Below are positions 3,120 through 59,437 of a stretch of DNA of 64,000 bases, piece after piece. The notes beneath the pieces were generated by a model that was not told the origin of the DNA, made no database searches, and saw only the letters and a program-made list of their open reading frames with translations. Both the position numbers and the translations under genes were made by a program. Source of the DNA: Candidatus Methylomirabilota bacterium (lineage in GTDB: Bacteria; Methylomirabilota; Methylomirabilia; Rokubacteriales; CSP1-6); NCBI GenBank assembly GCA_035650715.1, contig DASRHC010000004.1, positions 85,160 through 149,159 of the forward strand, written 5' to 3'. Positions within the stretch are counted from its first letter, which is position 1, and each line of letters starts with the position of its first letter.

Positions 3120-4433
3120 TCAGTCATAGACGCCGGCCAGGAGCCAGGCGGAGCCGTCGTGGGCCAGGCGGCAGAGCGTGCCGTCGGCCAGCTCCACGTC
3201 CCACTCGTCCTGCAGCCACGGATGAGGGGTCCACCACTCGCCCGACACCCGCCACGGGCCGACCCCGGCCACGATGCGCCCCCCGAGGCGACTCGATCGC
3301 AGCGCGACCGGCCGCCCCGATGCGACGGTGACCGCGGCGGGCGCGGGCGGGCGGAAGCGGCGGAGGGCGAGGACCGGGCCCCTCACCCTGCCCTCTCCTC
3401 GGTGGGGAGAGGTCGAGCCCCGGCGGGGAGGAGCAGATGTCCCTCGGCGGAGAGAGAGCGGGGCATAGGCGCCCAGGCCCACCGCGTCGGGGCGATGGCT
3501 GTCGAGCAGCGTCGGGGCGCCGACGCGGTCCGGGCCCACCAGCGCCACCAGGCGGTTCATGGTGGCCTCGAGGAAGCGCGGGCTCGGACGCGAAGGATCC
3601 GTGAACGACTCCTGCGCGGCGGCCGCACGGGTGGGGCGCACGCGCAGGACGATCGCGCGCACGATGCCGCGCGGCGGCCGGCCCTCGAGGGCCAGGCGCA
3701 GCAAGGCGGTCACCGCGCCGGACTCGGTCAGCGGCACCGCGGGCGTGAGCGCGCCCTCGTGCGCGCGTCCGTCGGCGAGCCGGCACGTCCACTCGAAGCC
3801 GTCGGCGGCCAGGCCGCGCGCGGCCAGTCTGGCGCAGAGGCGCTCGGCCATCGCCCCGAGCCGCTCCATCAGCGGCCCGAGCGCCTCGAGGCCCCACTCG
3901 CACTCGACCGACTCCTCGAAGACCGGCCCCGGCCGCCAGGCGCTGAGAGGCCGTGGGTCGTCGCCGCGGGCCAGCCGCTGGGCCCGGACGCCCTCGGCGC
4001 CGGCCCGCTCGAAGAGCCCCGTGGTCGGCAGCGCCGCCAGCTCGCCCATGGTCCGCAGGCCCCACCGCTCCAAGCGGGTGGCGAGCTCCTCCGATATCGG
4101 CAGCAGCGAGAGCGGTGCCGGGGCCAGCGCGGCCGCGTCGCCATCGGGCTCGACGATGGCGACCCCGGCACCGAGACGGGCCGCCACCAGCGCGGCGAGA
4201 CGGCTGCCGGCAACGCCCACCCGGATCGAGAAGCCCTCCGCGAGGGCGGCGGCGCGGAGCCGCTCGGCGAGGGTGGGCTCGTCGCCGAAGAGGCCCTCGA
4301 GTCCCGCCGCATCGAGATAGACGCAAGTGCTCGCTTCTTCGACACGAGGAGAATGTGCGAGCGCGACCTGGAGCAGGGCCCCCGGCGGGGGGAGCGACGG
4401 AGCCTCGGGGAGCAGGCAGCCGATGCGGCTCAC
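3120..4433 (-). CDS. imuB: ImuB, the Y-family-polymerase-like protein of the imuA-imuB-dnaE2 mutagenesis cassette
   Basis: 437 aa. N-terminus MSRIGCLLPEAP resembles Y-family MRRIACLWLPDFPL. Y-family-like VYLDAAGLEGLFGDEPTLAERLRAAALAEGFSIRVGVAGSRLAALVAARLG. C-terminal ImuB-like SGEWW motif. Sits immediately upstream of dnaE2 in the same frame. Confidence 0.7.
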   Translation of the reverse strand: MSRIGCLLPEAPSLPPPGALLQVALAHSPRVEEASTCVYLDAAGLEGLFGDEPTLAERLRAAALAEGFSIRVGVAGSRLAALVAARLGAGVAIVEPDGDAAALAPAPLSLLPISEELATRLERWGLRTMGELAALPTTGLFERAGAEGVRAQRLARGDDPRPLSAWRPGPVFEESVECEWGLEALGPLMERLGAMAERLCARLAARGLAADGFEWTCRLADGRAHEGALTPAVPLTESGAVTALLRLALEGRPPRGIVRAIVLRVRPTRAAAAQESFTDPSRPSPRFLEATMNRLVALVGPDRVGAPTLLDSHRPDAVGLGAYAPLSLRRGTSAPPRRGSTSPHRGEGRVRGPVLALRRFRPPAPAAVTVASGRPVALRSSRLGGRIVAGVGPWRVSGEWWTPHPWLQDEWDVELADGTLCRLAHDGSAWLLAGVYD

Positions 4434-5110
4434 GCGCCCCTCCGGTCACCGGCGCACCCGGCGCCGGAAGGCACGTCCTGAAGACTCCACTCGACCGCCC
4501 AGTGCCCCTCCCCCTGCCCTCTCCCCGGAGAGGAGAGGGTGGAGATGCGGACGCGGGTGATGGCGATCTCCGAGCGAAGACCGGCCAGCCGGGTGAGCGG
4601 TCGCAGGCCCATCCACTGCGGGCCGAGCCGTCGCGTGGTCAGCACCAGGGAGGCGGGGCTCCCCTCGCGGTGCCGGGCCACGCGGAGGATCAGGATCGTG
4701 TCGGTGTCCTCCACCGCCCGCTGCAGGCGGATGCACGTGGAGGCGGGCACCGGCCCCAGATCATCGAGGTCCAGCACGACCAGGGCAAAGCCCGGGCAGC
4801 GGGCCAGCAGGTCGGCGGCGCCGAGGGCCACCCGGAGGCGGCCGCCGCAGCGCACCCAGAGCAGCGCCGAGAGATCGGCGCCGGCCGCCGCAGCGGAATC
4901 GGGATCGAGCGAGTCGGTGGCGTCCACGAAGGCCACCTGTCCACCGGCCGTCGTGATGCGGGCGATGAGGGCCAGGAGCAGGCTGCTGGCTCCGGAGGAG
5001 CGGGAACCGACGACCTCGCTGAGCCGGCCCGGCGGAAACAGCCCGAGCAGGCCGTCGATCCCCTCGCGCTCCCACCCTGGCGGGGGTGAGGACTCGATCG
5101 GGATGCCCAT
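4430..5110 (-). CDS. imuA: ImuA, a RecA-fold SulA/ImuA-family protein
   Basis: 226 aa with a RecA-like core GRLSEVVGSRSSGASSLLLALIARITTAGGQVAFVDATDSLDP. Its stop abuts the imuB start. The 3' end contains a REP-like GC-rich palindrome sequence. Confidence 0.6.
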   Translation of the reverse strand: MGIPIESSPPPGWEREGIDGLLGLFPPGRLSEVVGSRSSGASSLLLALIARITTAGGQVAFVDATDSLDPDSAAAAGADLSALLWVRCGGRLRVALGAADLLARCPGFALVVLDLDDLGPVPASTCIRLQRAVEDTDTILILRVARHREGSPASLVLTTRRLGPQWMGLRPLTRLAGLRSEIAITRVRISTLSSPGRGQGEGHWAVEWSLQDVPSGAGCAGDRRGA

Positions 5111-5198
5111 CGCCTCGATTACACGTCACCTGTTAAGTATATTTCAACAACAAGATACAGGGGCTCAGGGGGGACACCGGCCCCAGATAGAGGGCCGA
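5111..5198 (-). promoter_or_regulatory. Candidate promoter/operator (possible SOS box) upstream of imuA
   Basis: A ~45-nt AT-rich island in a 70% GC background. Read toward imuA it is TTGAAA-N18-TGTAAT-N7-ATG with GAGG. It carries the imperfect palindrome TGTTAAG-TATAT-TTCAACA. imuA-imuB-dnaE2 cassettes are typically LexA-regulated. Confidence 0.3.
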
Positions 5199-5615
5199 CT
5201 ACCGCTGCACGCGCCGGCCGACCCGCCAGCGCACAAGGGCGACGTAGGCCACCGCGTACACCAGCACGCCGGCCACATTGCTCCAGGCCATCGCCCACAT
5301 CGTCGAGCCGGCCGCGTACCGGGTGAACCCCTCGTACGCGAAGATGCTGAGGAAGATCCCGGACGGCGCCATCAGCAGCGCCGCGACGATGCGCGGCGCC
5401 GAGCCGCGCGTGACCGCCCAGGGGGCCAGCAGCAGGCCGGCCTGCGAGACCAGGCCCATCACCCCGAAGATGGCGAGGCTGATCAGGTCCGTGCGCTCCG
5501 GCTCCGAGGCGCGCCCGAACCCATAGGCCGCGCTGGCGAAGGCCGCCGCCAGCGACAGTCCGGTCAGCCACGTGAGCACGAAGAAGACGACGAAGACGCG
5601 CTGGCGATCAGCCAA
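5199..5615 (-). CDS. Small integral membrane protein, hypothetical
   Basis: 138 aa with about four hydrophobic helices rich in W/Y/F. Composition is clean, unlike the overlapping ORFs. Confidence 0.5.
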   Translation of the reverse strand: MADRQRVFVVFFVLTWLTGLSLAAAFASAAYGFGRASEPERTDLISLAIFGVMGLVSQAGLLLAPWAVTRGSAPRIVAALLMAPSGIFLSIFAYEGFTRYAAGSTMWAMAWSNVAGVLVYAVAYVALVRWRVGRRVQR

Positions 5616-10796: not shown

Positions 10797-10798
10797 CC

Positions 10799-10861
10799 GG
10801 GGTCAGGTCTTACATTCCGACATTTGACGCGTCGCGATGTCGGAATGTAAGACCTGACCCC
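10799..10861. repeat. Inverted-repeat element copy 1. Perfect 25-bp arms GGGGTCAGGTCTTACATTCCGACAT / ATGTCGGAATGTAAGACCTGACCCC with a 13-nt loop.
   Basis: Seen directly. Starts 3 nt after the CaiB-family stop and ends 13 nt before the next gene start. Confidence 0.9.
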
Positions 10862-10874
10862 ATCGGAGAGTCAC

Positions 10875-13606: not shown

Positions 13607-13622
13607 GCGCCCAGCCTAGCGC

Positions 13623-13706
13623 GGGGTCAGGTCTTACATTCCTACATTTTCGGCGGCGGGGCGGCGGGGGGCGGAAGAGAAATGTCGGAATGTAAGACCT
13701 GACCCC
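13623..13706. repeat. Inverted-repeat element copy 2. 25-bp arms (one mismatch in the left arm) with a 34-nt GC-rich loop.
   Basis: Seen directly. Overlaps the 3' end and stop codon of the gamma-CA-like gene and lies 17 nt upstream of the PH-domain gene start. Confidence 0.9.
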
Positions 13707-14208
13707 GGTAGTCGCGGTGCCAGAGGTCGAGGTACTCGGTGGCGTTGCGGGCGATGTCGTCGAGCTCCTCCTGGCTCATCTTGCGCACCGGCTTGGCCGG
13801 GACGCCCATGACCAGCCAGCCCGACGGCACCACCTTGCCCGGCGGGACCACCGCGCCCGCCCCCACCTGCGCCCACTCCTCGATCACCGCGCCGGTGAGC
13901 ACCACCGCCCCGATGCCGATGCGCACGTTGTCCATCACCCGGCAGGCGTGCACCACCGCCCGGTGGCCGATCGTCACGTTGGCCCCCACGATGCACGGGA
14001 ACTGGGGCGTCACGTGCAGCACCGAGTTGTCCTGGACGTTGGAGTTGCGACCGAGCACGACGTAGTTGTCCTGGTCGCCCCGCAGCACGGTGAAGGGCCA
14101 CACGCTCGCGCCCGCCTCGATCGTCACGTCGCCGATGACCTGCGCGGCCGGATCCACGTAGGCCTCCGGGTGCACCCGCGGCGTCCGCCCCGGCACCGAG
14201 CGGATCAC
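13642..14208 (-). CDS. Gamma-carbonic-anhydrase-like hexapeptide-repeat protein (PaaY/CaiE family)
   Basis: GTG start overlaps the crotonase stop (GTGA). Reads MIRSVPGRTPRVHPEAYVDPAAQVIGDVTIEAGASVWPFTVLRGD... The C-terminal tail [20 protein letters not shown] and the stop are encoded by the inverted-repeat element. Confidence 0.8.
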   Translation of the reverse strand: MIRSVPGRTPRVHPEAYVDPAAQVIGDVTIEAGASVWPFTVLRGDQDNYVVLGRNSNVQDNSVLHVTPQFPCIVGANVTIGHRAVVHACRVMDNVRIGIGAVVLTGAVIEEWAQVGAGAVVPPGKVVPSGWLVMGVPAKPVRKMSQEELDDIARNATEYLDLWHRDYRGQVLHSDISLPPPAAPPPKM

Positions 14209-21674: not shown

Positions 21675-22540
21675 CGGGGGCCTCCGCAGCGGCCGAGCGC
21701 CGCGGTCAGCGTGCGCTCGGCCAGCGTGGCCGCCACCCGGCGGCGATAGGCCGCGGTCGCGTGGATGTCGCCGTCCGGCGAGAGCCCGGCGGCGGCCGCC
21801 CGCGCCGCCTCCCGGATCCGCTCCGGGGTCGGGGCTTGGCCGGTCAGCGCCTGCTCCGCGGCGGTGGCGCGCACCGGCGTGCCGCCCGCCCCGAAGAAGG
21901 CGAGCCGCGCCGGGCCGAGCGTGCCGTTTCCATCGCGCGCGAGCACCGCCACCGCGCCCACCAGGGCGAAGTCGCCGTGGCGGCGCGAGACCTCCGCGAA
22001 GCCCCAGCCGGCCCCGGCGGGCGGCAGCGTGAAGCGCACCGCGGTCGCCAGCTCGTCGGGCCCCAGCGCGGTGGTGAGCGGGGCGCGGTAGAACCGGTCG
22101 GCCGGGATCATGCGCTCGCCGCGCGGCCCGCGCGCGACCACCACGCCCTCCAGGCACAGGAGCACCGCGGGCAGCTCGGAGGCCGGATCGGCGTGGACCA
22201 CGTTGCCCACCACCGTGCCCCGGTTCCGGATGGGCGGATGCGCCACGTGCCGGAGCACCTCCGCGAAGAGCGGCGAGCGGGAAACGGCCCACCGCTCGAG
22301 CGCACGCTGCCGCACCAGCGCGCCGATCTCGAGCATGCCGGAGGCTTCGCGGATGCCGTCCAGGCCCGGCAGCCGGTTGATGTCCACCAGCAGCGTGGGT
22401 CGCGCCAGGCGCAGCGCCAGCATCGGGATCAGGCTCTGGCCGCCGGCCAGGACCTTGGCGTCCCCCCCGCCGCCCGCGAGGGCGCCCACCGCCTCGTCGA
22501 GACTCCGCGGGGCCGCGTACTCGAACGGGGCGGGCTTCAC
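21671..22540 (-). CDS. Molybdenum hydroxylase FAD-binding medium subunit (CoxM/CutM-like)
   Basis: 289 aa: AGGQSLIPML, and a CO-dehydrogenase flavoprotein-like fold. Confidence 0.85.
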   Translation of the reverse strand: MKPAPFEYAAPRSLDEAVGALAGGGGDAKVLAGGQSLIPMLALRLARPTLLVDINRLPGLDGIREASGMLEIGALVRQRALERWAVSRSPLFAEVLRHVAHPPIRNRGTVVGNVVHADPASELPAVLLCLEGVVVARGPRGERMIPADRFYRAPLTTALGPDELATAVRFTLPPAGAGWGFAEVSRRHGDFALVGAVAVLARDGNGTLGPARLAFFGAGGTPVRATAAEQALTGQAPTPERIREAARAAAAGLSPDGDIHATAAYRRRVAATLAERTLTAALGRCGGPR

Positions 22541-24873
22541 GACTCCCCCAGGAGGCCCAGCACCACCGACGGGCCGAGCGGCGTCCGCGTGACCTTGGCG
22601 CCGAACGAGGCGAGGGCGTCCTCCACCGCGTTGGCGATGGCGGCGGGCGGCGAGATGGCCCCGCCCTCCCCGATGCCCTTCATGCCGAGCGGATTGCGCG
22701 GCGACGGATATTCGAGGTGCACGGTCTCGATGTCGGGCAGCTCCATCGCGGTGGGGACCAGGTAGTCCATGAACGTGCCGGTCAGCAGCTGGGCCTGCTC
22801 GTCGTACACCATCTCCTCGAGCAGGCCGCCGCCGACGCCCTGCGCGACCCCGCCGTGGATCTGCCCCTCCACGATCACCGGGTTGATGATCTTGCCGCAG
22901 TCGTGCGCGACCAGGTAGCGCCGCAGCGTGACCGCCCCGGTGCCGGTGTCGACGTCCACCACCGCCACGTGGACCGCGCTGGTGTAGGTCACGGTGGGCT
23001 GGTGGTGGTACACCGTCGCCTCGAAGTCGAGCTCGGTCACTCCGGGCCTGGCGAAGGTCGGCGTCGCGGCGCGGATGACCGCGGCGAGCGGCGTGGCCGA
23101 CCCGGGCGCGCCGCGCACCGACACGGCGCCGTCGCTCACCTCGATGTCGGCGGGCGACGCCTCCAGGAGCGCGGCGGCCGCGGCCACGATCTTGTCCCTC
23201 ACGCGGCCGGAGGCCTCGTGGATCGAGCTGCCCGCGTTGACCGCGCTGCGCGAGGCGAACGTCCCGACCCCGAACGGGATCGCCGCGGTGTCACCGCCCA
23301 CCACCGTGACCCACTCGAGCGGGATCCCGAGGGCGTCGGCCGCGATCTGGGCAAACGAGGTCTCGTGCCCCTGCCCCTGGCAGCAGGCGCCGGTGGCCAC
23401 CACCGCGTGCCCCGAGGGATCCAGGCGCACGGTCGCGCCCTCGTAGGGGCCGATCGCCGTGCCCTCCACGTACCCCGAGATGCCGATCCCGCGATGGATG
23501 CCCTGCTCGCGCAGGCGCGCCTGCTCCGCGCGCAGGGCCGGATAGTCCACCGCGGCGAGCGCGGCCTCCAGCCCGGCGCGGAAGTCGCCGCTGTCGTAGA
23601 CGAGCGGGTTGCCGTCGCGGTACGGGATGTGGAGCTCGTACGGCATGTCGGCCTCGGTGAGGTAGTTGCGCCGGCGCAGGTCGGCGGGGTCCATGCCGAG
23701 CGCGCGCGCGAGACGGTCGACGATGCGGTCCATCGCGAACACGGTCTCCGGCCGGCCCGCCCCGCGGTAGGGCGCGTTCGGGGTCTTGGTGGTGACCACG
23801 CCGAGGCACTCCACGTCGAGGCTCGGCACCCGGTGCGGGCCCAGCAGGTGCGCCACCGTGTTGTACGGCAGCACGATGCCCCACGAGTTGTAGGCCCCGA
23901 GGTCCACCCAGATGCGGTCCCGTACCGCGAGCATGGTGCCGTCGCGCCGGGCCCCGATCTCGATGTCGTGCACCTGCGCGCGGGCGTGGGCGGATCCCAT
24001 CATGTGCTCGCGGCGGTCCTCGATCCACTTCACCGGGCGGCGCGAGGCGATGGCCGCGGCCGGGATCAGTAGATCTTCCGGGTACCCGTTGGCCTTGGTG
24101 CCGAACCCGCCGCCCACGTCCGGGGCGATCACCCGGATCTTGTGGGGCGGCAGGCCGAGCGCGGCGACCAGCCCCTGCTGGACGAAGTGCACCACCTGGG
24201 TGCCGTTCCAGGAGGTGAGCGTGCCGTCGCGCGGGTCCCACTGCGCGATCACCCCGCGCGTCTCGATCGGCATGCCGACGTAGCGCGGGATCGTGAACCG
24301 CTCACGCACCCGGACATGGGCCTCCCGCAATCCGGCCTCCGCGTCGCCGAACCCGGTCCGGAACGAGAGCGCGATGTTGTCGCCCCACTCCGGGTAGAGC
24401 ACCGGGGCGTCCGGCTGCGCCGCCGCGATCACGTCCGCCAGCACCGGCAGCGGCTCGTAGTCCACCTGCACCCGCTCCGCGGCGTCCTCGGCCAGCGCGC
24501 GGCTGCCGGCCAGCACCATGGCCACGATCTCGCCGACGTGCCGCACCTCGTCGCGGCACATCGCCAGCTGGCCGACCTGCCTCATCGTCACCGCCACCCG
24601 GGCGGAGAGGCCGGGCGGGATCGCCCCGAAGAGCGGCAGCGGCTTCATCCATCGCTCGAGGTCCGCGAAGGTGTAGACGTGGGCCACCCCGGGCAGGGCG
24701 CGAGCCGGCTCGGTGCGGATCGCGGTGATGCGCGCGTGCGCGTACGGGCTGCGCACGAAGGCGGCGTGCAGCATGCCGGGCAGCTTGATGTCGTCCACGA
24801 AGCGGCCCTCGCCACGGAGGTAGCGCGGGTCCTCGCGGCGCCGGACGGAGGCTCCGAAGTACTTGGCGCCCAT
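22537..24873 (-). CDS. Molybdopterin-dependent oxidoreductase large subunit (xanthine dehydrogenase / CoxL family)
   Basis: Starts MGAKYFGASVRRREDPRYLRG with GGGAG 9 nt upstream. Has GGGFG, and an aldehyde-oxidase/XDH-like C-terminus. Confidence 0.85.
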   Translation of the reverse strand: MGAKYFGASVRRREDPRYLRGEGRFVDDIKLPGMLHAAFVRSPYAHARITAIRTEPARALPGVAHVYTFADLERWMKPLPLFGAIPPGLSARVAVTMRQVGQLAMCRDEVRHVGEIVAMVLAGSRALAEDAAERVQVDYEPLPVLADVIAAAQPDAPVLYPEWGDNIALSFRTGFGDAEAGLREAHVRVRERFTIPRYVGMPIETRGVIAQWDPRDGTLTSWNGTQVVHFVQQGLVAALGLPPHKIRVIAPDVGGGFGTKANGYPEDLLIPAAAIASRRPVKWIEDRREHMMGSAHARAQVHDIEIGARRDGTMLAVRDRIWVDLGAYNSWGIVLPYNTVAHLLGPHRVPSLDVECLGVVTTKTPNAPYRGAGRPETVFAMDRIVDRLARALGMDPADLRRRNYLTEADMPYELHIPYRDGNPLVYDSGDFRAGLEAALAAVDYPALRAEQARLREQGIHRGIGISGYVEGTAIGPYEGATVRLDPSGHAVVATGACCQGQGHETSFAQIAADALGIPLEWVTVVGGDTAAIPFGVGTFASRSAVNAGSSIHEASGRVRDKIVAAAAALLEASPADIEVSDGAVSVRGAPGSATPLAAVIRAATPTFARPGVTELDFEATVYHHQPTVTYTSAVHVAVVDVDTGTGAVTLRRYLVAHDCGKIINPVIVEGQIHGGVAQGVGGGLLEEMVYDEQAQLLTGTFMDYLVPTAMELPDIETVHLEYPSPRNPLGMKGIGEGGAISPPAAIANAVEDALASFGAKVTRTPLGPSVVLGLLGES

Positions 24874-24926
24874 GTCAGTGGTCTCCCCGGTGGTGGTGCG
24901 GCGGTCCACCGTTTAGATCTTCAAGG

Positions 24927-25062
24927 CTCTTCAGCTGCGGGGGCCCAGAAATGGCCCCCGCACTCCCCCAGCCGGCGGACGACCGTCTACTTCTGAAACT
25001 CTTCAGCTGCGGGGGCCCAGAAATGGCCCGCGCACTCCCCCAGCCGGCGGACGACCGTCTGT
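24927..25062. repeat. Two tandem ~65-bp units, each with a perfect 9-bp-stem hairpin GCGGGGGCC-CAGAAAT-GGCCCCCGC
   Basis: Seen directly. Unit: CTCTTCAGCTGCGGGGGCCCAGAAATGGCCCCCGCACTCCCCCAGCCGGCGGACGACCGTCT. Lies in the 207-nt gap between the livF stop and the coxL start. A third inverted copy is at ~34963-35030. Confidence 0.85.
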
Positions 25063-25080
25063 GGCTCAGGTTCATGGTGG

Positions 25081-25771
<691 letters not shown>

Positions 25772-25785
<14 letters not shown>

Positions 25786-29741: not shown

Positions 29742-30437
29742 ATGTCCCCGTCTCGCTCCACCGCCCCGCGGGCGGCGATCGCTCCGCTTCTCCACGAGAG
29801 CCTGGGCGAGCGCGTCTACCGCACCGTGCGCGACCTCATCCTGAGCCAGGTCTTCCCGCCCGGCTCGAAGCTGAACGTGGAGCAGCTCTGCCGCGACCTC
29901 GGGGTGAGCCGGACCCCGGTGTGGGACACCATGCGCCGCCTGGAGAGCGAGGGACTGGTCAACACGGTCGCCCGGCACGGGGTGTTCGTGCTGAACTACG
30001 GCGACGCGCAAATCCGCGACCTCTTCGCGGTGCGCGGGGCCCTCGAGGCCCTCGCGGTGCGGCAGGCCGCCGCCAACCCCGACGCGCGCGCGCTCCTCGA
30101 GCCGGCGATGAAGGAGATGGAGGAGGCGGTGGCGGCGGGCGCGATCGAGCAGTACTCGCGCGCGGCCATCGACTTCCACGACCGCATGCTGATGGCGGCG
30201 CGGAACCAGGTGCTCGGCCGGCTGCTGGAGAACGTCTACGCGCAGATCCTGGTGCTGCGCCTGCGCTCGCTCTACCTGCCCGAGCGTCTCGCGTCGAGCG
30301 TGGCCGAGCACCGCGCACTGTTCGAGGCGGTGGGGGCCGGCGACGGCGAGGGCGGCGAGCGGCTGGCCCGCTCCCACGCCGATCACGTGCTGCAGGACGC
30401 GCTCGAGTTCACGCGCCGGGCCGAGCAGGAGCGGTGA
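29742..30437 (+). CDS. GntR-family transcriptional regulator (FadR/FCD subfamily)
   Basis: 231 aa with an N-terminal wHTH (RVYRTVRDLILSQVFPPGSKLNVEQLCRDLGVSRTPVWDTMRRLESEGLV) and an FCD C-terminal domain. Confidence 0.85.
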   Translation: MSPSRSTAPRAAIAPLLHESLGERVYRTVRDLILSQVFPPGSKLNVEQLCRDLGVSRTPVWDTMRRLESEGLVNTVARHGVFVLNYGDAQIRDLFAVRGALEALAVRQAAANPDARALLEPAMKEMEEAVAAGAIEQYSRAAIDFHDRMLMAARNQVLGRLLENVYAQILVLRLRSLYLPERLASSVAEHRALFEAVGAGDGEGGERLARSHADHVLQDALEFTRRAEQER

Positions 30438-31107
30438 GCGGCCGGCTCGATGGCAGCGCGATCGTGGTCACCGGAGGCGCGGCCGGGCTCGGGCTGGCCT
30501 ACGCCCGCCGCTTCGTGCGCGAGGGGGCGTGCGTGTTCCTGGCCGACATCGTGGATCCGGCCCCCGCGGTCGCGAGCCTCGACGCGGGGGATCGCGCGGC
30601 CGGCTGCCGGGTCGACGTGGCCTCGTCCGCCTCGGTGGACGCGATGGTGGCCGCCGCGCTGCGCCACCTCGGGCGTATCGACGTGCTGGTGAACAATGCG
30701 GCGGTCTTCGCGACCCTCACCCCGAAGCCGTTCGAGACCATTCCGGAGGAGGAGTGGGACCGGGTCATGGCGGTCAACGTGCGCGGCATGTGGAACTGCG
30801 TGAAGGCGGTCACTACGTGGCGTCCAAGGGTGCGGTGATCGCCATGACCCGCGCGCTCGCCCGCGAGCTGGGCGACGACGGCATCGCGGTCAACGCGGTG
30901 GCGCCTGGCCTGATCCTGAGCGACACCGTGCGAGCCAATCCGGCGGTCACCGGCTTCCAGGCCGCGAGCGTGCTCCAGTCCCGCGCCTTCAAGCGGGAGG
31001 CGCTGCCGGAGGACGTGGAGGGCGCGGTGGTGTTTCTCGCCTCGTCGGACAGCGCCTTCATGACCGGCCAGACGCTGGTCGTCGACGGCGGATCGGTGTT
31101 CGTCTAG
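30434..31107 (+). pseudogene. SDR-family oxidoreductase disrupted by an internal ~85-nt deletion or frameshift
   Basis: GTG start overlaps the gntR stop (GTGA). The N-terminal part (IVVTGGAAGLG...VLVNNAA...NVRGMWNCVKAV) is in the frame of ORF 29429..30838. The C-terminal part (HYVASKGAVIAMTRALARELG...GGSVFV) is in the frame of ORF 30529..31107. About 28 residues around the catalytic Ser are missing between them. Confidence 0.5.
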
Positions 31108-34150: not shown

Positions 34151-34908
34151 GCGTGACCGCGAGCGAGCTGCTGGCCGTGATGGGGGCCCGCGAGCTGCGG
34201 GACAACACGACCGTGTTCACGGGAGTGGGCGCACCGATGATGGCCTCGGTGCTCGCCCAGCGCTCGCACGCCCCCGGCCTCACCATGATGGTGGAGGGTG
34301 GGGTCATCGGCCCGATGTGGAAGCCGGGGGAGCTGCCGATCTCCACCAACGAGATGCGCGCGGCGTACCGGGCCCAGGCGCTGCCCGGCATCACCGACGC
34401 CTTCCTGCTCGCCCAGCGCGGCTTCTTCGACGTGGGCTTCATCGGGGGCGCCCAGATCGACCGCCACGGCAACCTCAACACCAGCGCCATCGGCGGCTAC
34501 GCCCGGCCCAAGGTCCGGCTGCCCGGCAGCGGGGGCGCCAACGACATCATCTCGCTCTGTCGCGAGGTGATGATCCTGACCGTGCACGAGAAGCGCCGGT
34601 TCACCGAGCGGGTGGACTTCGTGACCAGCCCCGGCTACCTGGAGGGCGGCGACGCCCGCCGGCGCCACGGCCTGCTCTTCGGCGGCGTCTCCCGCCTGAT
34701 CACCACCCTGGGCATCTTCGGCTTCGACAACGAGGACCACCGCATGGAGGTCCTGGCCCTGCATCCGGGCTGCACCCTCGAGCAGGTCCGCGAGCACACC
34801 GGCTTCGAGGTCCTGGTGAGCCCCAGGCTCACGACGACAAAGCCGCCCACGGACGAGGAGCTCGCCATCCTTCGCATGCTGGACCCAGCGCGCCAGTTCA
34901 TAGGATGA
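34147..34908 (+). CDS. CoA-transferase subunit B
   Basis: GTG start overlaps the subunit A stop (GTGA). Subunit-B-like blocks: GVGAPMMASVLAQ, and GGAQIDRHGNLN. Confidence 0.8.
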   Translation: MSVTASELLAVMGARELRDNTTVFTGVGAPMMASVLAQRSHAPGLTMMVEGGVIGPMWKPGELPISTNEMRAAYRAQALPGITDAFLLAQRGFFDVGFIGGAQIDRHGNLNTSAIGGYARPKVRLPGSGGANDIISLCREVMILTVHEKRRFTERVDFVTSPGYLEGGDARRRHGLLFGGVSRLITTLGIFGFDNEDHRMEVLALHPGCTLEQVREHTGFEVLVSPRLTTTKPPTDEELAILRMLDPARQFIG

Positions 34909-34962
34909 CCACATGCCCGATCGCCCAGCGAGTCCGCGTACGACCAATCACCGGCCGAATCC

Positions 34963-35030
34963 ACAGTCGGTTGTCCGCCGGCTGGGGGAGTGCGGGGGCC
35001 ATTTCGGGGCCCCCGCAGCTGAAGAGCTTG
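34963..35030. repeat. Third, inverted copy of the 65-bp hairpin repeat seen at 24927-25062
   Basis: The reverse complement matches the tandem units: CTCTTCAGCTGCGGGGGCCCCGAAATGGCCCCCGCACTCCCCCAGCCGGCGGA. Lies between the CoA-transferase B stop and the LLM start. Confidence 0.8.
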
Positions 35031-35067
35031 AGGAAGCAGACGGTAGCCCGCTTTCGGCGAACAGGAG

Positions 35068-36012
35068 GTGCCGCCCGTGACCGACTTCGGCCTCGCCATT
35101 CGCAACTTCGTGGGCCCCGGCGAGGTGCCGGACATCCCTGCGCTCTACGCCTACGCCGAGCGCGCGGAGGCCCTCGGCTTCGAGTCCCTGTGGGCGTGGG
35201 ACCACGTCCTGCTGGGCGTGGAGCCCTCGTTCCCCATCGTGGACTCCATCACCATGCTGGGCGCGGTGGCGGCGCGCACCCGCACCATCAAGCTGGGCAC
35301 CGGGGTCCTGGTGCTGCCGCTGCGCAATCCGGTGGTGGCGGCCAAATCGCTCGGCAGCCTCGACGTGATCTCGGGAGGCCGCCTCGTCCTGGGCGTGGCC
35401 GCGGGCTGGTATGCGCGCGAGTTCGACGCGGTGGGCGTGCCGTTCAAGCAGCGCGGCCGCCAGTTCGAGCGGAACCTCGACATCCTGATGCGTCTCTGGA
35501 CCGAGGAGCGCGTCACCCTCAAGGTGGACGAGTTCAACCTGCGGGAGGCGGTGATGGTTCCCCGCACCGTGCAGCGCCCGCGCCCGCCAGTCCTGATCGG
35601 CGGCTACGTGGACGCGGTGCTCAAGCGCGCGGGCACCCGGGGAGACGGCTGGCTCACCTACTTCTACACCCCGGAAAGCTTCACCCGGGGGTGGGAGAAG
35701 GTGAAGGCCTTCGCCCGGGAGGCGGGCCGCGATCCCCGCACTCTCACCGCCACCAACCAGCTCGCGATCTACGTGGGGCGCTCGCGGCAGGAGACCGCCG
35801 CCGACATGCGCCAGTGGCTGTCCACCGAGTGGGATACCGCGGCGTGGAGCGAGTCCACCATCGACCACGCCGTGCACGGGTCCGCCGCCGAGTGCGTCGA
35901 GCAGCTGCGCGCCCACGTGCGGACGGGCGTGCATCGGATTATCCTGATCCCGTACCGTTACCAGGCCGAGCAGGTCGAGCGCATCGCCAAGGAGGTCTTG
36001 CCCAAGCTATGA
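35068..36012 (+). CDS. LLM-class (luciferase-like monooxygenase), F420/flavin-dependent oxidoreductase
   Basis: 314 aa with a TIM-barrel LLM signature: LGFESLWAWDH, LGTGVLVLPLRNPVVAAK. Confidence 0.85.
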   Translation: MPPVTDFGLAIRNFVGPGEVPDIPALYAYAERAEALGFESLWAWDHVLLGVEPSFPIVDSITMLGAVAARTRTIKLGTGVLVLPLRNPVVAAKSLGSLDVISGGRLVLGVAAGWYAREFDAVGVPFKQRGRQFERNLDILMRLWTEERVTLKVDEFNLREAVMVPRTVQRPRPPVLIGGYVDAVLKRAGTRGDGWLTYFYTPESFTRGWEKVKAFAREAGRDPRTLTATNQLAIYVGRSRQETAADMRQWLSTEWDTAAWSESTIDHAVHGSAAECVEQLRAHVRTGVHRIILIPYRYQAEQVERIAKEVLPKL

Positions 36013-46600: not shown

Positions 46601-46601
46601 G

Positions 46602-46688
46602 GGGGTCAGGTCTTACATTCCGACATTTTTCCCGCTGGAGGCGTCACCACGCCACCCACGAAAATGTCGGAATGTAAGACCTGACCCC
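46602..46688. repeat. Inverted-repeat element copy 3. Perfect 25-bp arms with a 37-nt loop.
   Basis: Seen directly. Lies between convergent genes, 2 nt after the CoA-ligase stop and 4 nt before the M48 peptidase stop. Confidence 0.9.
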
Positions 46689-46692
46689 ATCT

Positions 46693-53153: not shown

Positions 53154-53193
53154 CGCGCCTCGGACTCTATCCCGCCCACCCGCCCCCCGCAAC

Positions 53194-53279
53194 GGGGTCA
53201 GGTCTTACATTCCGACATTGCCCAAACGCGAGACCCGACGCCATCCGCAATCAATGTCGGAATGTAAGACCTGACCCCA
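53194..53279. repeat. Inverted-repeat element copy 4. Perfect 25-bp arms with a 35-nt loop.
   Basis: Seen directly. Immediately 3' of the alpha/beta hydrolase gene stop. Confidence 0.9.
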
Positions 53280-55540: not shown

Positions 55541-55579
55541 CGACGGGGCCGCGACCCTCTCGACTCCGAACCCCCTCAC

Positions 55580-55650
55580 CCTGCCCTCCCCCCCGAGGGG
55601 GAAAGGGTGAGCGAGAGCCCTCCGGGGAGAGGATTGGGGTGAGGGGTTGA
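55580..55650. repeat. GC-rich REP-like palindromic element (family CCCTCACCCTGCCCTC...GGGGAGAGG...GGTGAGGG)
   Basis: Intergenic, between two minus-strand ABC genes. A related copy is at ~59330-59437, and partial matches fall inside imuB (~3380-3425) and imuA (~4500-4545). Confidence 0.6.
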
Positions 55651-59329: not shown

Positions 59330-59437
59330 ACCCGCGCCCCGTCTAGCCAAATCCCCGCTCTCCTCTCTCCCTCCACCCCTGGAGAGGCCCCCTGTCCCTC
59401 TCCCCTCAGGGGAGAGGGCAGGGTGAGGGGCTGTGAC
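59330..59437. repeat. GC-rich REP-like palindromic element with a hairpin CCCTGTCCCTCTCCCC-TCA-GGGGAGAGGGCAGGG
   Basis: Intergenic, between the biotin carboxylase start and the SBP stop. Same family as 55580-55650. Confidence 0.6.

What the first reader, a model, noticed from the sequence alone, without database searches (positions are those of the whole stretch)
24927..25062. Tandem pair of a 65-bp hairpin repeat between livF and the Mo-hydroxylase genes, with a third inverted copy 10 kb away
Two head-to-tail units of CTCTTCAGCTGCGGGGGCCCAGAAATGGCCCCCGCACTCCCCCAGCCGGCGGACGACCGTCT each contain a perfect 9-bp stem / 7-nt loop hairpin. They lie in the only sizeable non-coding gap (207 nt) inside the long minus-strand catabolic gene array. 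A third copy in inverse orientation lies at ~34963-35030, between the CoA-transferase B gene and the LLM gene of the plus-strand operon. This may be a REP-type element, an sRNA, or an internal attenuator or processing site.
Basis: seen in the sequence. Interest (0 to 1): 0.5.

Follow-up and report, generated by a model that had tools for sequence, protein, structure and literature searches.

The report
Mobile hairpin repeat bridging operon genes
The tandem hairpin repeat is real and belongs to a family of at least 170 copies of a ~72-base repeat found in high-GC soil bacteria (probably Methylomirabilota/Rokubacteria), which sits between and sometimes inside genes, often within a tiny reading frame linking one gene's stop codon to the next gene's start, much like the MIRU repeats of mycobacteria.

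Summary
The period is 72 nt, not 65. Only one of the two tandem units has a perfect 9-bp stem. All three copies point the same way relative to local transcription.

It is not an operon-specific regulator. It belongs to a large interspersed repeat family. Three species-representative MAGs also carry it; viral contigs do not.

Orthologous operons in relatives have empty sites, with 7-16 nt spacers, at both window positions. Copy number at occupied sites varies from 1 to 4.

The family is about 79% co-oriented with flanking genes. Arrays are head-to-tail. It fills short intercistronic gaps.

In 24 of 58 analysable cases a small ORF starts at or near the upstream stop, reads through the hairpin and ends at the downstream start. 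In 17 of 58 the overlap is exactly -4 (NTGA). Element-free control spacers gave 1 of 37. Both window loci show this ORF.

At five other gene sites the element lies in frame inside a coding region (MutL and ABC-transporter linkers, among others).

Best reading: a MIRU-like, partly REP- and RPE-like, non-autonomous repeat that is tolerated because translation passes through it. No transposase was identified and there are no expression data.

The parts
24989..25060 (-). Repeat unit B (nearer livF), 72 nt: AGACGGTCGTCCGCCGGC-TGGGGGAGT-hairpin-AGCTGAAGAG-TTTCAGAAGT
   Evidence: TRF period 72; the repeat finder family D16; nhmmer E=5e-22
25009..25033 (-). Hairpin of unit B. One stem mismatch (GCGCGGGCC / GGCCCCCGC).
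   Evidence: Sequence; the MFE fold does not form the canonical stem
24917..24988 (-). Repeat unit A (nearer the coxL-like gene), 72 nt. Its left and hairpin modules match unit B except for 1 nt. Its right module differs (CCTTGAAGAT...).
24937..24961 (-). Hairpin of unit A: perfect 9-bp all-G/C stem, 7-nt loop AUUUCUG
   Evidence: the 42-nt hairpin module folds at -23.5 kcal/mol, z = -3.1
24899..24916 (-). End of the right module plus a partial left module (CTAAACGGTGGACCGCCG). This is the third, partial period.
   Evidence: TRF 2.2-copy row 24899-25060; conserved at 100% in orthologues L027 and L054
24875..25075 (-). Bridge ORF 1, 66 codons. Its ATG lies 5 nt after the livF TAG. It reads both units in frame a (..WGSAGAISGPPQLK..). 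Its TGA ends 1 nt before the coxL-like ATG.
   Evidence: the ORF listing; translation; the same ORF is present in the one-copy orthologue L027 (45 codons)
25081..25083 (-). Stop codon (TAG) of the livF-type ABC ATPase gene (25081-25785)
24871..24888 (-). The coxL-like gene's own Shine-Dalgarno-like GGGGAGA (24882-24888) and ATG (24871-24873). The Mo-hydroxylase large-subunit gene runs 22537-24873.
   Evidence: Sequence; Pfam Ald_Xan_dh_C/MoCoBD
34963..35043 (+). Repeat unit C: left module AGTCGGTTGTCCGCCGGC, TGGGGGAGT, hairpin, AGCTGAAGAG, right module CTTGAGGAAGCAGACGG
   Evidence: the repeat finder I2/I3; nhmmer E=1.5e-23; orthologous copies in L051 and L126
34992..35016 (+). Hairpin of unit C: perfect 9-bp stem, loop AUUUCGG
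34913..35080 (+). Bridge ORF 2, 55 codons. Its ATG lies 4 nt after the CoA-transferase TGA. It reads the unit in frame c. Its TGA overlaps the GTG start of the luciferase-like monooxygenase gene (GTGA, -4 overlap).
   Evidence: the ORF listing; translation
34905..34908 (+). ATGA at the stop of the CoA-transferase B gene. An ATG overlaps the TGA. GGATGA is present in every occupied version of this junction, and GGCTAG or GGCTGA in every empty one.
35063..35079 (+). AGGAGG (35063-35068) and the GTG start (35077-35079) of the luciferase-like monooxygenase gene (to 36012)
   Evidence: start position supported by orthologues with TTG/ATG-ACC-GAC-TTC-GGC

Best explanation
The three units are copies of a lineage-specific, non-autonomous interspersed repeat of about 72 nt. 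The host lineage is uncultured, roughly 71% GC soil bacteria, most probably Methylomirabilota/Rokubacteriales.

Each unit has three modules:
- a left module, ACGG-NTGTCCGCC-NNN;
- a highly conserved hairpin module, TGGGGGAGT-GCGGGGGCC-AUNUCNG-GGCCCCCGC-AG-(A/C)TGAAGAG;
- a right module, CYTGAAGAAGTA(A/G)ACGG.

**Shown**
- The element is gained and lost at orthologous sites.
- It forms head-to-tail arrays whose copy number varies.
- It is mostly co-oriented with transcription.
- It lies in the short spacer between co-directional genes.
- It is significantly often embedded in a small ORF that starts at or just after the upstream stop codon and ends at or overlapping the downstream start codon.
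- It can also sit in frame inside genes, in inter-domain linkers.

**Inferred**
- In the window the units are passengers in two intercistronic junctions of a catabolic cluster, transcribed as part of the polycistronic mRNAs.
- The very stable hairpin would otherwise uncouple the neighbouring cistrons.
- Ribosomes that finish livF (or the CoA-transferase gene) re-initiate on the bridge ORF, melt the hairpin and terminate at the coxL-like (or monooxygenase) start. That would preserve translational coupling, as proposed for MIRUs.
- Surviving insertions are those compatible with being translated through.

The mobilising enzyme is unknown.
For: **Family size and spread**
- Three GTDB genome contigs carry the unit.
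- These hold 174 oriented copies in 134 arrays: 103 single, 24 double, 5 triple, 2 quadruple.
- TGGGGGAGT was not part of the scan pattern, yet it is 96-99% conserved.

**Insertion polymorphism**
- Site 1 is empty in L130, L131 and L137, with 16-, 9- and 39-nt spacers. It holds 1-2 copies in L133, L135, L138, L027/L054 and the window.
- Site 2 is empty (7-nt spacer) in L130, L137 and L133. It is occupied in the window, L051, L126 and L138.
- L003, from the same population, has one copy instead of two.
- The alpha/beta-hydrolase site holds 1-4 copies in different contigs.

**Core conservation**
- The core is identical between orthologues whose flanking genes are only 86-91% identical, while the rest of the spacer is unalignable.

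**Orientation**
- Flanking genes are both co-oriented in 71 arrays and both anti-oriented in 19 (p = 3e-8). After an over-merging site clustering the counts are 27 and 7 (p = 8e-4).
- On contigs with two sites on opposite strands (window, L017, L116), each copy follows its local gene direction.

**Bridge ORFs**
- 24 of 58 co-oriented arrays have one, and 17 of 58 have an exact -4 overlap. Element-free 70-300-nt spacers in the same loci gave 1 of 37 and 0 of 37 (Fisher p = 1e-5 and 1.6e-4).
- ATGA at the upstream stop occurs at 20 of 64 junctions against 74 of 558 control gene ends (p = 6e-4).
- Both window loci have a bridge ORF.

**The element's own ATG serves as the gene start**
- LarC: Pfam profile position 1-2 aligns at residue 4-8.
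- ThrRS: the ORF is 598 aa, the length of most listed relatives, and its N-terminus matches theirs.

**In-frame copies inside genes**
- MutL, ABC exporter, ABC-F, SPOR-domain and PolyA_pol genes each carry one.

**Published MIRU model**
- PMC12548453, citing Supply 1997.
Against: - Only about 40% of analysable arrays have a bridge ORF by my criteria.
- About 20% of copies are anti-oriented.
- The two window bridge ORFs read the unit in different frames.
- At this G+C content a 66-codon frame is open by chance about 28% of the time.
- The ATGA-initiated frame at window site 2 does not terminate at the next start.
- Gene starts and strands come from my own GC3-based heuristic. The control set is small (37).
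- The metagenome scan pattern fixed the stem and the TGAA, so conservation of those positions and the ATGAA start context are partly ascertainment.
- No target-site duplication and no transposase were found. E. coli RayT gave no hit in 1.18 Mb.
- There are no transcript or ribosome data.
- Stem variants in 49 pattern-independent copies are non-compensatory. Nothing shows selection on the RNA structure itself.
Confidence: 0.7

Rival explanations
1. A selfish repeat only. The element spreads and is tolerated, but the bridge ORFs do nothing. They would be a by-product of insertion next to start codons in stop-poor, GC-rich sequence, and downstream genes would rely on their own ribosome-binding sites.
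For: - In the window both downstream genes keep their own Shine-Dalgarno-like sequences: GGGGAGA at 24882-24888 and AGGAGG at 35063-35068.
- 34 of 58 arrays lack a bridge ORF.
- Frames differ between loci.
- The unit-internal NTG..TAA frame is intact in only 17 of 60 units.
Against: - Exact -4 overlaps occur in 17 of 58 arrays against 0 of 37 controls.
- ATGA is enriched at the upstream stop, even though A at a third codon position is rare in these genomes.
- In L135 a different repeat family at the same junction is also bridged from ATGA to ATGA.
- In L133 a 49-nt sequence replacing the 7-nt loop adds 42 nt and keeps the bridge ORF in frame.
Confidence: 0.2
2. A REP-like mRNA element. The G/C hairpin would act mainly at the RNA level, as a 3'-exonuclease barrier or processing site that sets different stabilities for the upstream and downstream parts of the operon transcript.
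For: - The hairpin is very stable (-23.5 kcal/mol).
- It lies inside operons downstream of a stop codon (median 44 nt).
- It avoids divergent promoter regions (4 of 134 arrays).
- E. coli REPs are known, from my own knowledge, to stabilise upstream mRNA.
Against: - The hairpin is equally stable in either orientation, which does not explain a 4:1 orientation bias.
- The element is absent from orthologous operons.
- In-frame copies occur inside genes.
- Stem variants show no compensatory changes.
- This reading is not exclusive of the best explanation.
Confidence: 0.07
3. A regulatory element specific to this catabolic cluster, such as an attenuator, a riboswitch-like leader, an operator or an sRNA, shared by the two divergent operons.
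For: Two junctions of one gene cluster carry it in the same transcriptional orientation.
Against: - Nothing reached an Rfam gathering score, and the relaxed search gave only noise.
- No promoter-like or terminator-like site was found.
- Relatives with the same cluster lack it at one or both sites.
- More than 100 copies lie next to unrelated genes.
Confidence: 0.02
4. A small protein gene with a 24-residue internal repeat (the 66-aa ORF).
For: - The 72-nt period is divisible by 3, and one ORF spans both units.
- Frame a is preferred among ATGA-initiated ORFs (17 of 24).
- Frame a is used at all in-gene copies (7 of 7).
Against: - The third copy is read in another frame.
- Array periods of 72-75 nt (spacings) and 1-nt length variants within the unit break the frame.
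- There is a fully variable codon next to the core.
- The ORF is absent wherever the site is empty.
Confidence: 0.01

Closest known systems
MIRU (mycobacterial interspersed repetitive units; Supply et al. 1997, as summarised in PMC12548453)
   Same: - Units of tens of nucleotides in head-to-tail arrays.
- Located inside operons between co-directional genes and co-oriented with them.
- Copy number varies between strains.
- A small ORF through the unit overlaps or abuts the downstream start (-4 spacing).
- Insertions lie at or next to start codons.
   Different: - No sequence relationship was tested, and the host phylum is unrelated.
- This unit is built around a 9-bp all-G/C hairpin with a near-invariant 49-nt core.
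- Only about 40% of arrays show the bridge ORF.
- Copies also occur in frame inside genes.
- The element's own ATG(A) can serve as the gene's start codon.
REP / BIME / REPIN-RAYT systems (PMC3116915, PMC3337134)
   Same: - Short, G/C-rich palindromic units.
- Present in many copies in transcribed extragenic space.
- Lineage-specific and often clustered.
   Different: - REPINs are inverted doublets (93% in P. fluorescens SBW25, PMC3116915). Here 31 arrays are direct and only 2 adjacent inverted pairs were seen.
- No RAYT was found near the copies.
- The 5' flank is GAGT rather than the GTAG that I recall for classical REPs.
- There is a strong bias to the transcribed orientation.
RPE (Rickettsia palindromic elements; PMC1166351)
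   Same: Palindromic repeats that colonise both non-coding DNA and protein-coding genes in frame. Here that includes the MutL linker, the ABC exporter TMD-NBD linker, ABC-F, a SPOR-domain protein and a PolyA_pol protein.
   Different: - RPEs are longer (about 100-150 bp, from memory), AT-rich and restricted to Rickettsia.
- This family is mainly intercistronic and forms tandem arrays.
Split ribosome-binding sites in which a hairpin brings the Shine-Dalgarno sequence and the AUG together (phage T4 genes 38 and 25; from memory, not checked here)
   Same: In roughly 15 copies the only Shine-Dalgarno-like sequence (GGGGGAG) lies 5' of the 25-nt hairpin, and the gene's AUG lies 2 nt after its 3' end.
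   Different: Nothing here was tested functionally. The alternative is coupling through the frame-b ORF, whose TGA overlaps that AUG.

Membership tests
MIRU-type intercistronic repeats | Units of about 40-100 bp in direct (head-to-tail) arrays in intergenic regions of operons | tested here: met
   Period 72-75 nt. 31 multi-copy arrays, all direct. Median 44 nt from the upstream stop. Most downstream starts lie within 60 nt.
MIRU-type intercistronic repeats | Same orientation as the flanking genes | tested here: met
   71 co-oriented against 19 anti-oriented between co-directional genes. All 3 window copies are co-oriented. The bias is about 79%, not absolute.
MIRU-type intercistronic repeats | An ORF through the unit whose ends overlap or abut the flanking genes' stop and start codons (-4 spacing at the downstream gene) | tested here: met
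   24 of 58 arrays, 17 of 58 with an exact -4 overlap, against 1 of 37 and 0 of 37 controls. Window ORFs 24875-25075 (+1 spacing) and 34913-35080 (-4, GTGA).
MIRU-type intercistronic repeats | Copy-number variation at a locus between strains | tested here: met
   Site 1 holds 0, 1 or 2 copies and the hydrolase site 1-4. For L003, assembly collapse is not excluded.
MIRU-type intercistronic repeats | Sequence homology to mycobacterial MIRUs | not tested
Homology is unlikely given the unrelated phylum and the hairpin core.
REP / REPIN-RAYT | Short palindromic unit present in many extragenic copies | tested here: met
   9-bp stem and 7-nt loop; 174 copies
REP / REPIN-RAYT | Units organised as inverted doublets that form a longer hairpin (REPIN) | tested here: not met
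   Arrays are head-to-tail. Only L033 and L091 have adjacent inverted copies.
REP / REPIN-RAYT | A cognate RAYT (Y1 transposase) gene flanked by the repeats | tested here: inconclusive
   phmmer --max with E. coli RayT against all ORFs of 70 aa or more in 1.18 Mb of fetched loci gave no hit at E up to 10. Whole genomes could not be searched.
RPE-type repeats | In-frame insertion into protein-coding genes without disrupting domains | tested here: met
   - MutL: element at aa 523-531, between DNA_mis_repair (369-482) and MutL_C (567-707).
- ABC exporter: element at aa 336-344, between ABC_membrane and ABC_tran.
- ABC-F, SPOR-domain and PolyA_pol proteins also carry one.
Rfam cis-regulatory RNA or sRNA families | A match at or above a family's gathering score | tested here: not met
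   0 matches in the window. The best sub-threshold match is Yfr1, 17.5 bits against a gathering score of 38.
Intrinsic terminator / attenuator | G/C-rich hairpin followed by a U-run | tested here: not met
   0 terminator-like sites in 24700-25300. The hairpin is followed by AGCUGAAGAG.

The most novel reading that the evidence does not exclude
The family may be more than tolerated junk. It could be a mobile module with built-in translation signals:
- a Shine-Dalgarno-like GGGGGAG;
- a hairpin that brings that sequence next to an AUG;
- an ATGA stop/start overlap;
- a stop-free frame.

Such a module could insert at start codons, at operon junctions and in protein linkers. It would then supply the start codon, or relay ribosomes, for the downstream gene. 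That would make it a convergent counterpart of MIRUs and RPEs in an uncultured phylum. The way the host bridges insertions (ATGA...NTGA ORFs) also appears with a second, unrelated repeat family in L135.
Probability: 0.35. Interest if true: 0.65.

Novelty: new member of a known kind. Interest (0 to 1): 0.45.

Why it matters
**Annotation.** The two gaps in this catabolic cluster do not hold a regulator of the pathway. They hold copies of a repeat family that will recur throughout these genomes.

The family can:
- break assemblies;
- create spurious small-ORF calls;
- extend or shift predicted gene starts;
- add 12 or more residues to proteins.

**Biology.** It gives an independent, non-mycobacterial example in which intercistronic repeats are statistically associated with stop/start-overlapping bridge ORFs. 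The idea that mobile repeats persist in operons by preserving translational coupling could therefore be tested on natural occupied and empty site pairs.

**Typing.** The copy-number variation could also serve as a strain marker for an uncultured soil lineage.

Tried and rejected
- **Rfam.** The whole window at gathering thresholds gave nothing. The repeat region at E up to 10 gave only noise: Yfr1, Guanidine-II and a miRNA.
- **Promoter and terminator scan.** None found.
- **A fixed unit-encoded peptide (NTG..TAA, 22 codons).** Rejected. The spacing from NTG to the hairpin is 21 nt in 59 copies and 20 nt in 51. From the hairpin to TAR it is 20 nt in 49 and 21 nt in 19. The frame is intact in only 17 of 60 units.
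- **Covariation as a test of RNA structure.** Not informative. The stem was fixed by the scan pattern. In 49 pattern-independent copies the stem changes are single, non-compensatory or truncations. No covariance model was built.
- **Target-site duplication.** Comparing empty and occupied sites showed no clear duplication, only the recurring ATGA/NTGA motifs.
- **RAYT search.** E. coli RayT gave no hit.
- **Viral contigs.** No match.
- **Literature.** Searches for Rokubacteria or Methylomirabilota repeats, and for the core sequence string, found nothing relevant. The Rokubacteria genome paper reports 8-17% non-coding DNA and does not contain the word 'repeat'.
- **Integron attC and CRISPR.** Considered from the sequence and dropped. 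There are no R'/R'' core sites and the flanking genes are ordinary operon genes. The 10-13-nt 'spacers' are themselves conserved.
- **Taxonomy from MAG labels.** Labels are inconsistent (Methylomirabilota, Rokubacteria, Nitrosotalea, Dormibacteraeota, Pseudomonadales, Verrucomicrobiae, Binatia). The host assignment is therefore tentative.
- **My first ORF-based gene caller.** It was too crude. I replaced it with a local GC3 frame test.
Full report
**1. What is in the window**

Tandem Repeats Finder reports a 72-nt period at 24927-25060 (1.9 copies, 98% matches). A looser row from 24899 gives 2.2 copies. The repeat finder gives two 62-nt copies at 98% identity and an inverted third copy at 34961-35032, 92-95% complementary. 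A 49-nt consensus with up to 3 mismatches hits only these three places, with 0 expected by chance. A family profile HMM finds no further copy in the 64 kb.

- The period is 72 nt, not 65.
- The unit nearer livF has a stem mismatch (GCGCGGGCC / GGCCCCCGC) and no longer folds into the canonical hairpin.
- There is a partial third period at 24899-24916.
- All three copies have the same orientation relative to local transcription. Two lie in the minus-strand livF-to-coxL-like operon and one in the plus-strand CoA-transferase-to-monooxygenase operon.

The 207-nt gap is the only junction longer than 27 nt in that array.

**2. Source and relatives**

The window is the reverse complement of positions 15705-79704 of an ENA metagenome contig, ERZ27279688 k141_957438, 164,841 bp. 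The same locus occurs in several NCBI metagenome assemblies. One of them, L003, has a single unit in the livF/coxL gap. That unit joins the 5' flank of unit B to the 3' flank of unit A. This is either a real copy-number difference or an assembly collapse.

An exact 22-mer from the 5' half of the unit occurs in three species-representative MAG contigs. Two are labelled Methylomirabilota. The third is labelled Nitrosotalea but has 71% G+C. In each it sits between co-directional genes in the genes' orientation.

It found none in viral contigs. All fetched loci have 67-75% G+C.

ThrRS from one element-bearing contig has its closest named relatives under Methylomirabilota and Rokubacteria. Several plainly inconsistent MAG labels also appear. 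The host assignment is therefore probable but not firm.

**3. Anatomy of the family**

I extracted 174 oriented copies, of which 171 have distinct 150-mers. They form 134 arrays: 103 single, 24 double, 5 triple and 2 quadruple. All multi-copy arrays are head-to-tail, with periods of 72-75 nt.

The consensus unit is AAACGG-NTGTCCGCC-NNN-TGGGGGAGT-GCGGGGGCC-ATNTCNG-GGCCCCCGC-AG-(A/C)TGAAGAG-CYTGAAGAAGTA(A/G)ACGG.

- The nine bases TGGGGGAGT were not in the scan pattern, yet they are 96-99% conserved.
- The loop varies mainly at positions 3 and 6, and its last base is G or A.
- The left and right modules are more variable. They can be repeated, swapped for other tails or absent, giving a mosaic like BIMEs.
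- The 42-nt hairpin module folds at -23.5 kcal/mol, z = -3.1.
- In 49 copies that do not match the scan pattern, stem changes are single mismatches, 1-nt deletions or truncations. None is compensatory. There is no covariation evidence for or against a selected RNA structure.

**4. The element comes and goes**

I used homologues of the cluster's substrate-binding protein, 85-91% identical, to fetch the orthologous cluster from other assemblies.

*Site 1 (livF/coxL-like)*

| Locus | State |
|---|---|
| L130 | empty, 16-nt spacer |
| L131 | empty, 9-nt spacer |
| L137 | no element, 39-nt spacer |
| L027/L054 | 1 copy |
| L138 | 1 copy, one C missing from the 3' arm |
| L133 | 1 copy, 49 nt in place of the 7-nt loop |
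| L135 | 2 copies |
| window | 2 copies |

*Site 2 (CoA-transferase/monooxygenase)*

| Locus | State |
|---|---|
| L130, L137, L133 | empty, 7-nt spacer (GGCTAG-AGGCGCC-ATGACC) |
| window, L051, L126, L138 | occupied by this element |
| L135 | occupied by a different repeat family |

Between orthologues whose flanking genes are 86-91% identical, the core is identical except for the loop and the A/C position. The rest of the spacer cannot be aligned. I saw no target-site duplication.

Units A and B of the window share their left and hairpin modules (1 difference in 62 nt) but have different right modules. The pair is therefore not a simple local duplication.

**5. Orientation and position**

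I used a local codon-position G+C test to call the coding strand on each side of an array. The flanking genes are both co-oriented with the element in 71 arrays, both anti-oriented in 19, convergent in 8 and divergent in 4 (binomial p = 3e-8). After a deliberately over-merging clustering of orthologous sites the counts are 27 and 7 (p = 8e-4).

On three contigs with sites on opposite strands (window, L017, L116), each copy follows its own gene's direction. One contig (L074) does not. This argues that the bias tracks transcription or translation rather than replication, but only whole genomes can settle it.

The first hairpin begins a median 44 nt after the upstream stop. Most downstream starts lie within 60 nt of the last hairpin. 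The element essentially is the spacer.

**6. Relation to translation**

On the transcribed strand the unit has stops in two frames: TGA at +3 and +12, and TAA or TAG at +20, counted from the hairpin end. The third frame is open. The opposite strand has no stop in any frame (my reading of the consensus).

A fixed unit-encoded peptide is not supported, because 1-nt length variants break the NTG..TAA frame in most units.

ORFs that begin at or just after the upstream gene's stop codon behave differently. They read through the hairpins and end at the downstream start much more often than in controls.

| Set | Bridge ORF (gap -4 to +10) | Exact -4 overlap (NTGA) |
|---|---|---|
| Co-oriented arrays | 24/58 | 17/58 |
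| Anti-oriented arrays | 2/14 | 2/14 |
| Element-free 70-300-nt spacers, same loci | 1/37 | 0/37 |

Fisher tests of co-oriented arrays against controls give p = 1e-5 and 1.6e-4.

The upstream stop is ATGA at 20 of 64 junctions, against 74 of 558 control gene ends (p = 6e-4). ORFs starting at that ATG or GTG read the hairpin in frame a in 17 of 24 cases.

The hairpin module itself ends in AG-ATGA-AG. In about 15 copies that ATG is the start of a real gene.
- For LarC, the Pfam profile begins at residue 4-8.
- For ThrRS, the ORF is 598 aa, the length of most listed relatives, and its N-terminus matches theirs.

In these copies a frame-b ORF stops on the overlapping TGA.

Both window loci fit the pattern.
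- ORF 24875-25075 (66 codons) starts 5 nt after the livF TAG and ends 1 nt before the coxL-like ATG. It is conserved in the one-copy orthologue L027 and in L133, where the loop insertion adds 42 nt and stays in frame (read from the sequence).
- ORF 34913-35080 (55 codons) starts 4 nt after the CoA-transferase TGA, and its TGA overlaps the monooxygenase GTG.

All occupied versions of site 2 have GGATGA at the upstream stop. All empty ones have GGCTAG or GGCTGA. In L135 the unrelated repeat at that site is bridged by an ORF running from ATGA to ATGA.

**7. Copies inside genes**

At seven loci, representing about five distinct genes, the hairpin module lies in frame a inside a long ORF with coding signal on both sides. 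It is translated as ..(W/G)GSAGA(I/M)SGPPQ(M/L)(K/N)...

Pfam places these insertions in linkers:
- MutL, between DNA_mis_repair and MutL_C;
- an ABC exporter, between ABC_membrane and ABC_tran;
- an ABC-F protein, before its C-terminal domain;
- a SPOR-domain protein;
- a PolyA_pol-domain protein.

**8. Interpretation**

*Shown.* This is a multi-copy, lineage-specific repeat with insertion and copy-number polymorphism. It has a strong but incomplete bias to the transcribed orientation, a position in intercistronic spacers, a significant association with stop/start-overlapping bridge ORFs, and occasional in-frame residence in genes.

*Inferred.* In the window the units are passengers, not regulators of the catabolic pathway. 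The bridge ORFs would let ribosomes leaving the upstream cistron unwind the hairpin and reach the next start, which would preserve coupling. [quoted passage not shown]

*Not excluded.*
- The bridge ORFs may be a by-product of where the element lands.
- The hairpin may also affect mRNA stability or processing.
- The GGGGGAG-hairpin-AUG arrangement may work as a split ribosome-binding site (an analogy from memory).

*Unknown.* The means of spread is not known. E. coli RayT finds nothing in 1.18 Mb of fetched sequence.

**9. Comparison with known families**

- The family works like a MIRU. All four architectural features I could test are met. Homology was not tested and is unlikely.
- It resembles REPs in being a G/C palindrome in many extragenic copies. 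It fails the REPIN criterion of inverted doublets (PMC3116915), and no RAYT was found.
- It matches no Rfam family.
- I found no description of it in the searchable literature.

**10. Verdict**

The sRNA and attenuator options are not supported.

The element is a new, apparently undescribed member of the known class of bacterial interspersed intergenic repeats. It is closest in behaviour to MIRUs, with a REP-like hairpin and RPE-like tolerance inside genes.

Interest is moderate. It is ordinary as a class. It is useful as an independent natural test case for repeats maintained by translational coupling, and it is relevant to annotating these genomes.

**Main caveats**
- Gene calls are heuristic.
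- The control set is small.
- The scan pattern introduces ascertainment.
- There is no whole-genome census.
- There are no expression data.

Noticed in passing
window 10797-10862, 13622-13707, 46601-46689, 53193-53279: A second repeat family: palindromic elements of about 65-90 nt with 26-nt terminal inverted repeats (GGGGTCAGGTCTTACATTCCGACATT ... AATGTCGGAATGTAAGACCTGACCCC) around a variable centre. Three of the four begin within a few nt of a stop codon.
   Followed up: partly
window 3378-3412, 4504-4539, 55571-55605, 59396-59431; L135 about 5099-5213: A third repeat family of the type GCCCCTCACCCTGCCCTCTCCCCGGAGAGGAGAGGG. In L135 an inverted pair of these fills the CoA-transferase/monooxygenase junction that holds the hairpin unit in the window. 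It is also spanned by an ORF running from an ATGA stop/start overlap to another ATGA.
   Followed up: partly
L133/L134 14509-14641: At the livF/coxL-like junction of a related genome, the element's 7-nt loop is replaced by 49 nt while both stem arms are kept. The extra 42 nt keep the bridge ORF in frame, and its TAG is followed directly by the coxL-like ATG.
   Followed up: no
L008 (DATIWG010000066.1), L140 (DATIWG010000035.1, GCA_035519555.1); proteins P0009, P0047, P0138, P0185, P0234: Contigs and proteins of this 71% G+C lineage are filed in public MAGs under Nitrosotalea sp., Dormibacteraeota, Pseudomonadales, Verrucomicrobiae and Binatia, as well as Methylomirabilota/Rokubacteria. This points to mis-binning in soil MAG catalogues.
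   Followed up: partly
window about 30434-31107 (+), equal to L001 4679-5352: The short-chain dehydrogenase gene next to the GntR regulator is called as two overlapping fragments (96 and 134 aa) here and in the NCBI assemblies. The orthologue in L138 is one gene of 243 aa. This may be a frameshift or a pseudogene.
   Followed up: no
L099 5212-6192 and upstream: The ORF that starts at the element's ATG matches only the C-terminal part of a TonB-dependent receptor barrel (profile positions 165-436). The element may therefore split that gene or lie within it.
   Followed up: no
L127 1711-1757, L063 241-279, L078 277-313, L040 167-200, L090 2875-2916: These are half elements, consisting of the left module plus TGGGGGAGT plus only the 5' stem arm, followed directly by another left module. 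They suggest recombination or truncation at the hairpin.
   Followed up: no
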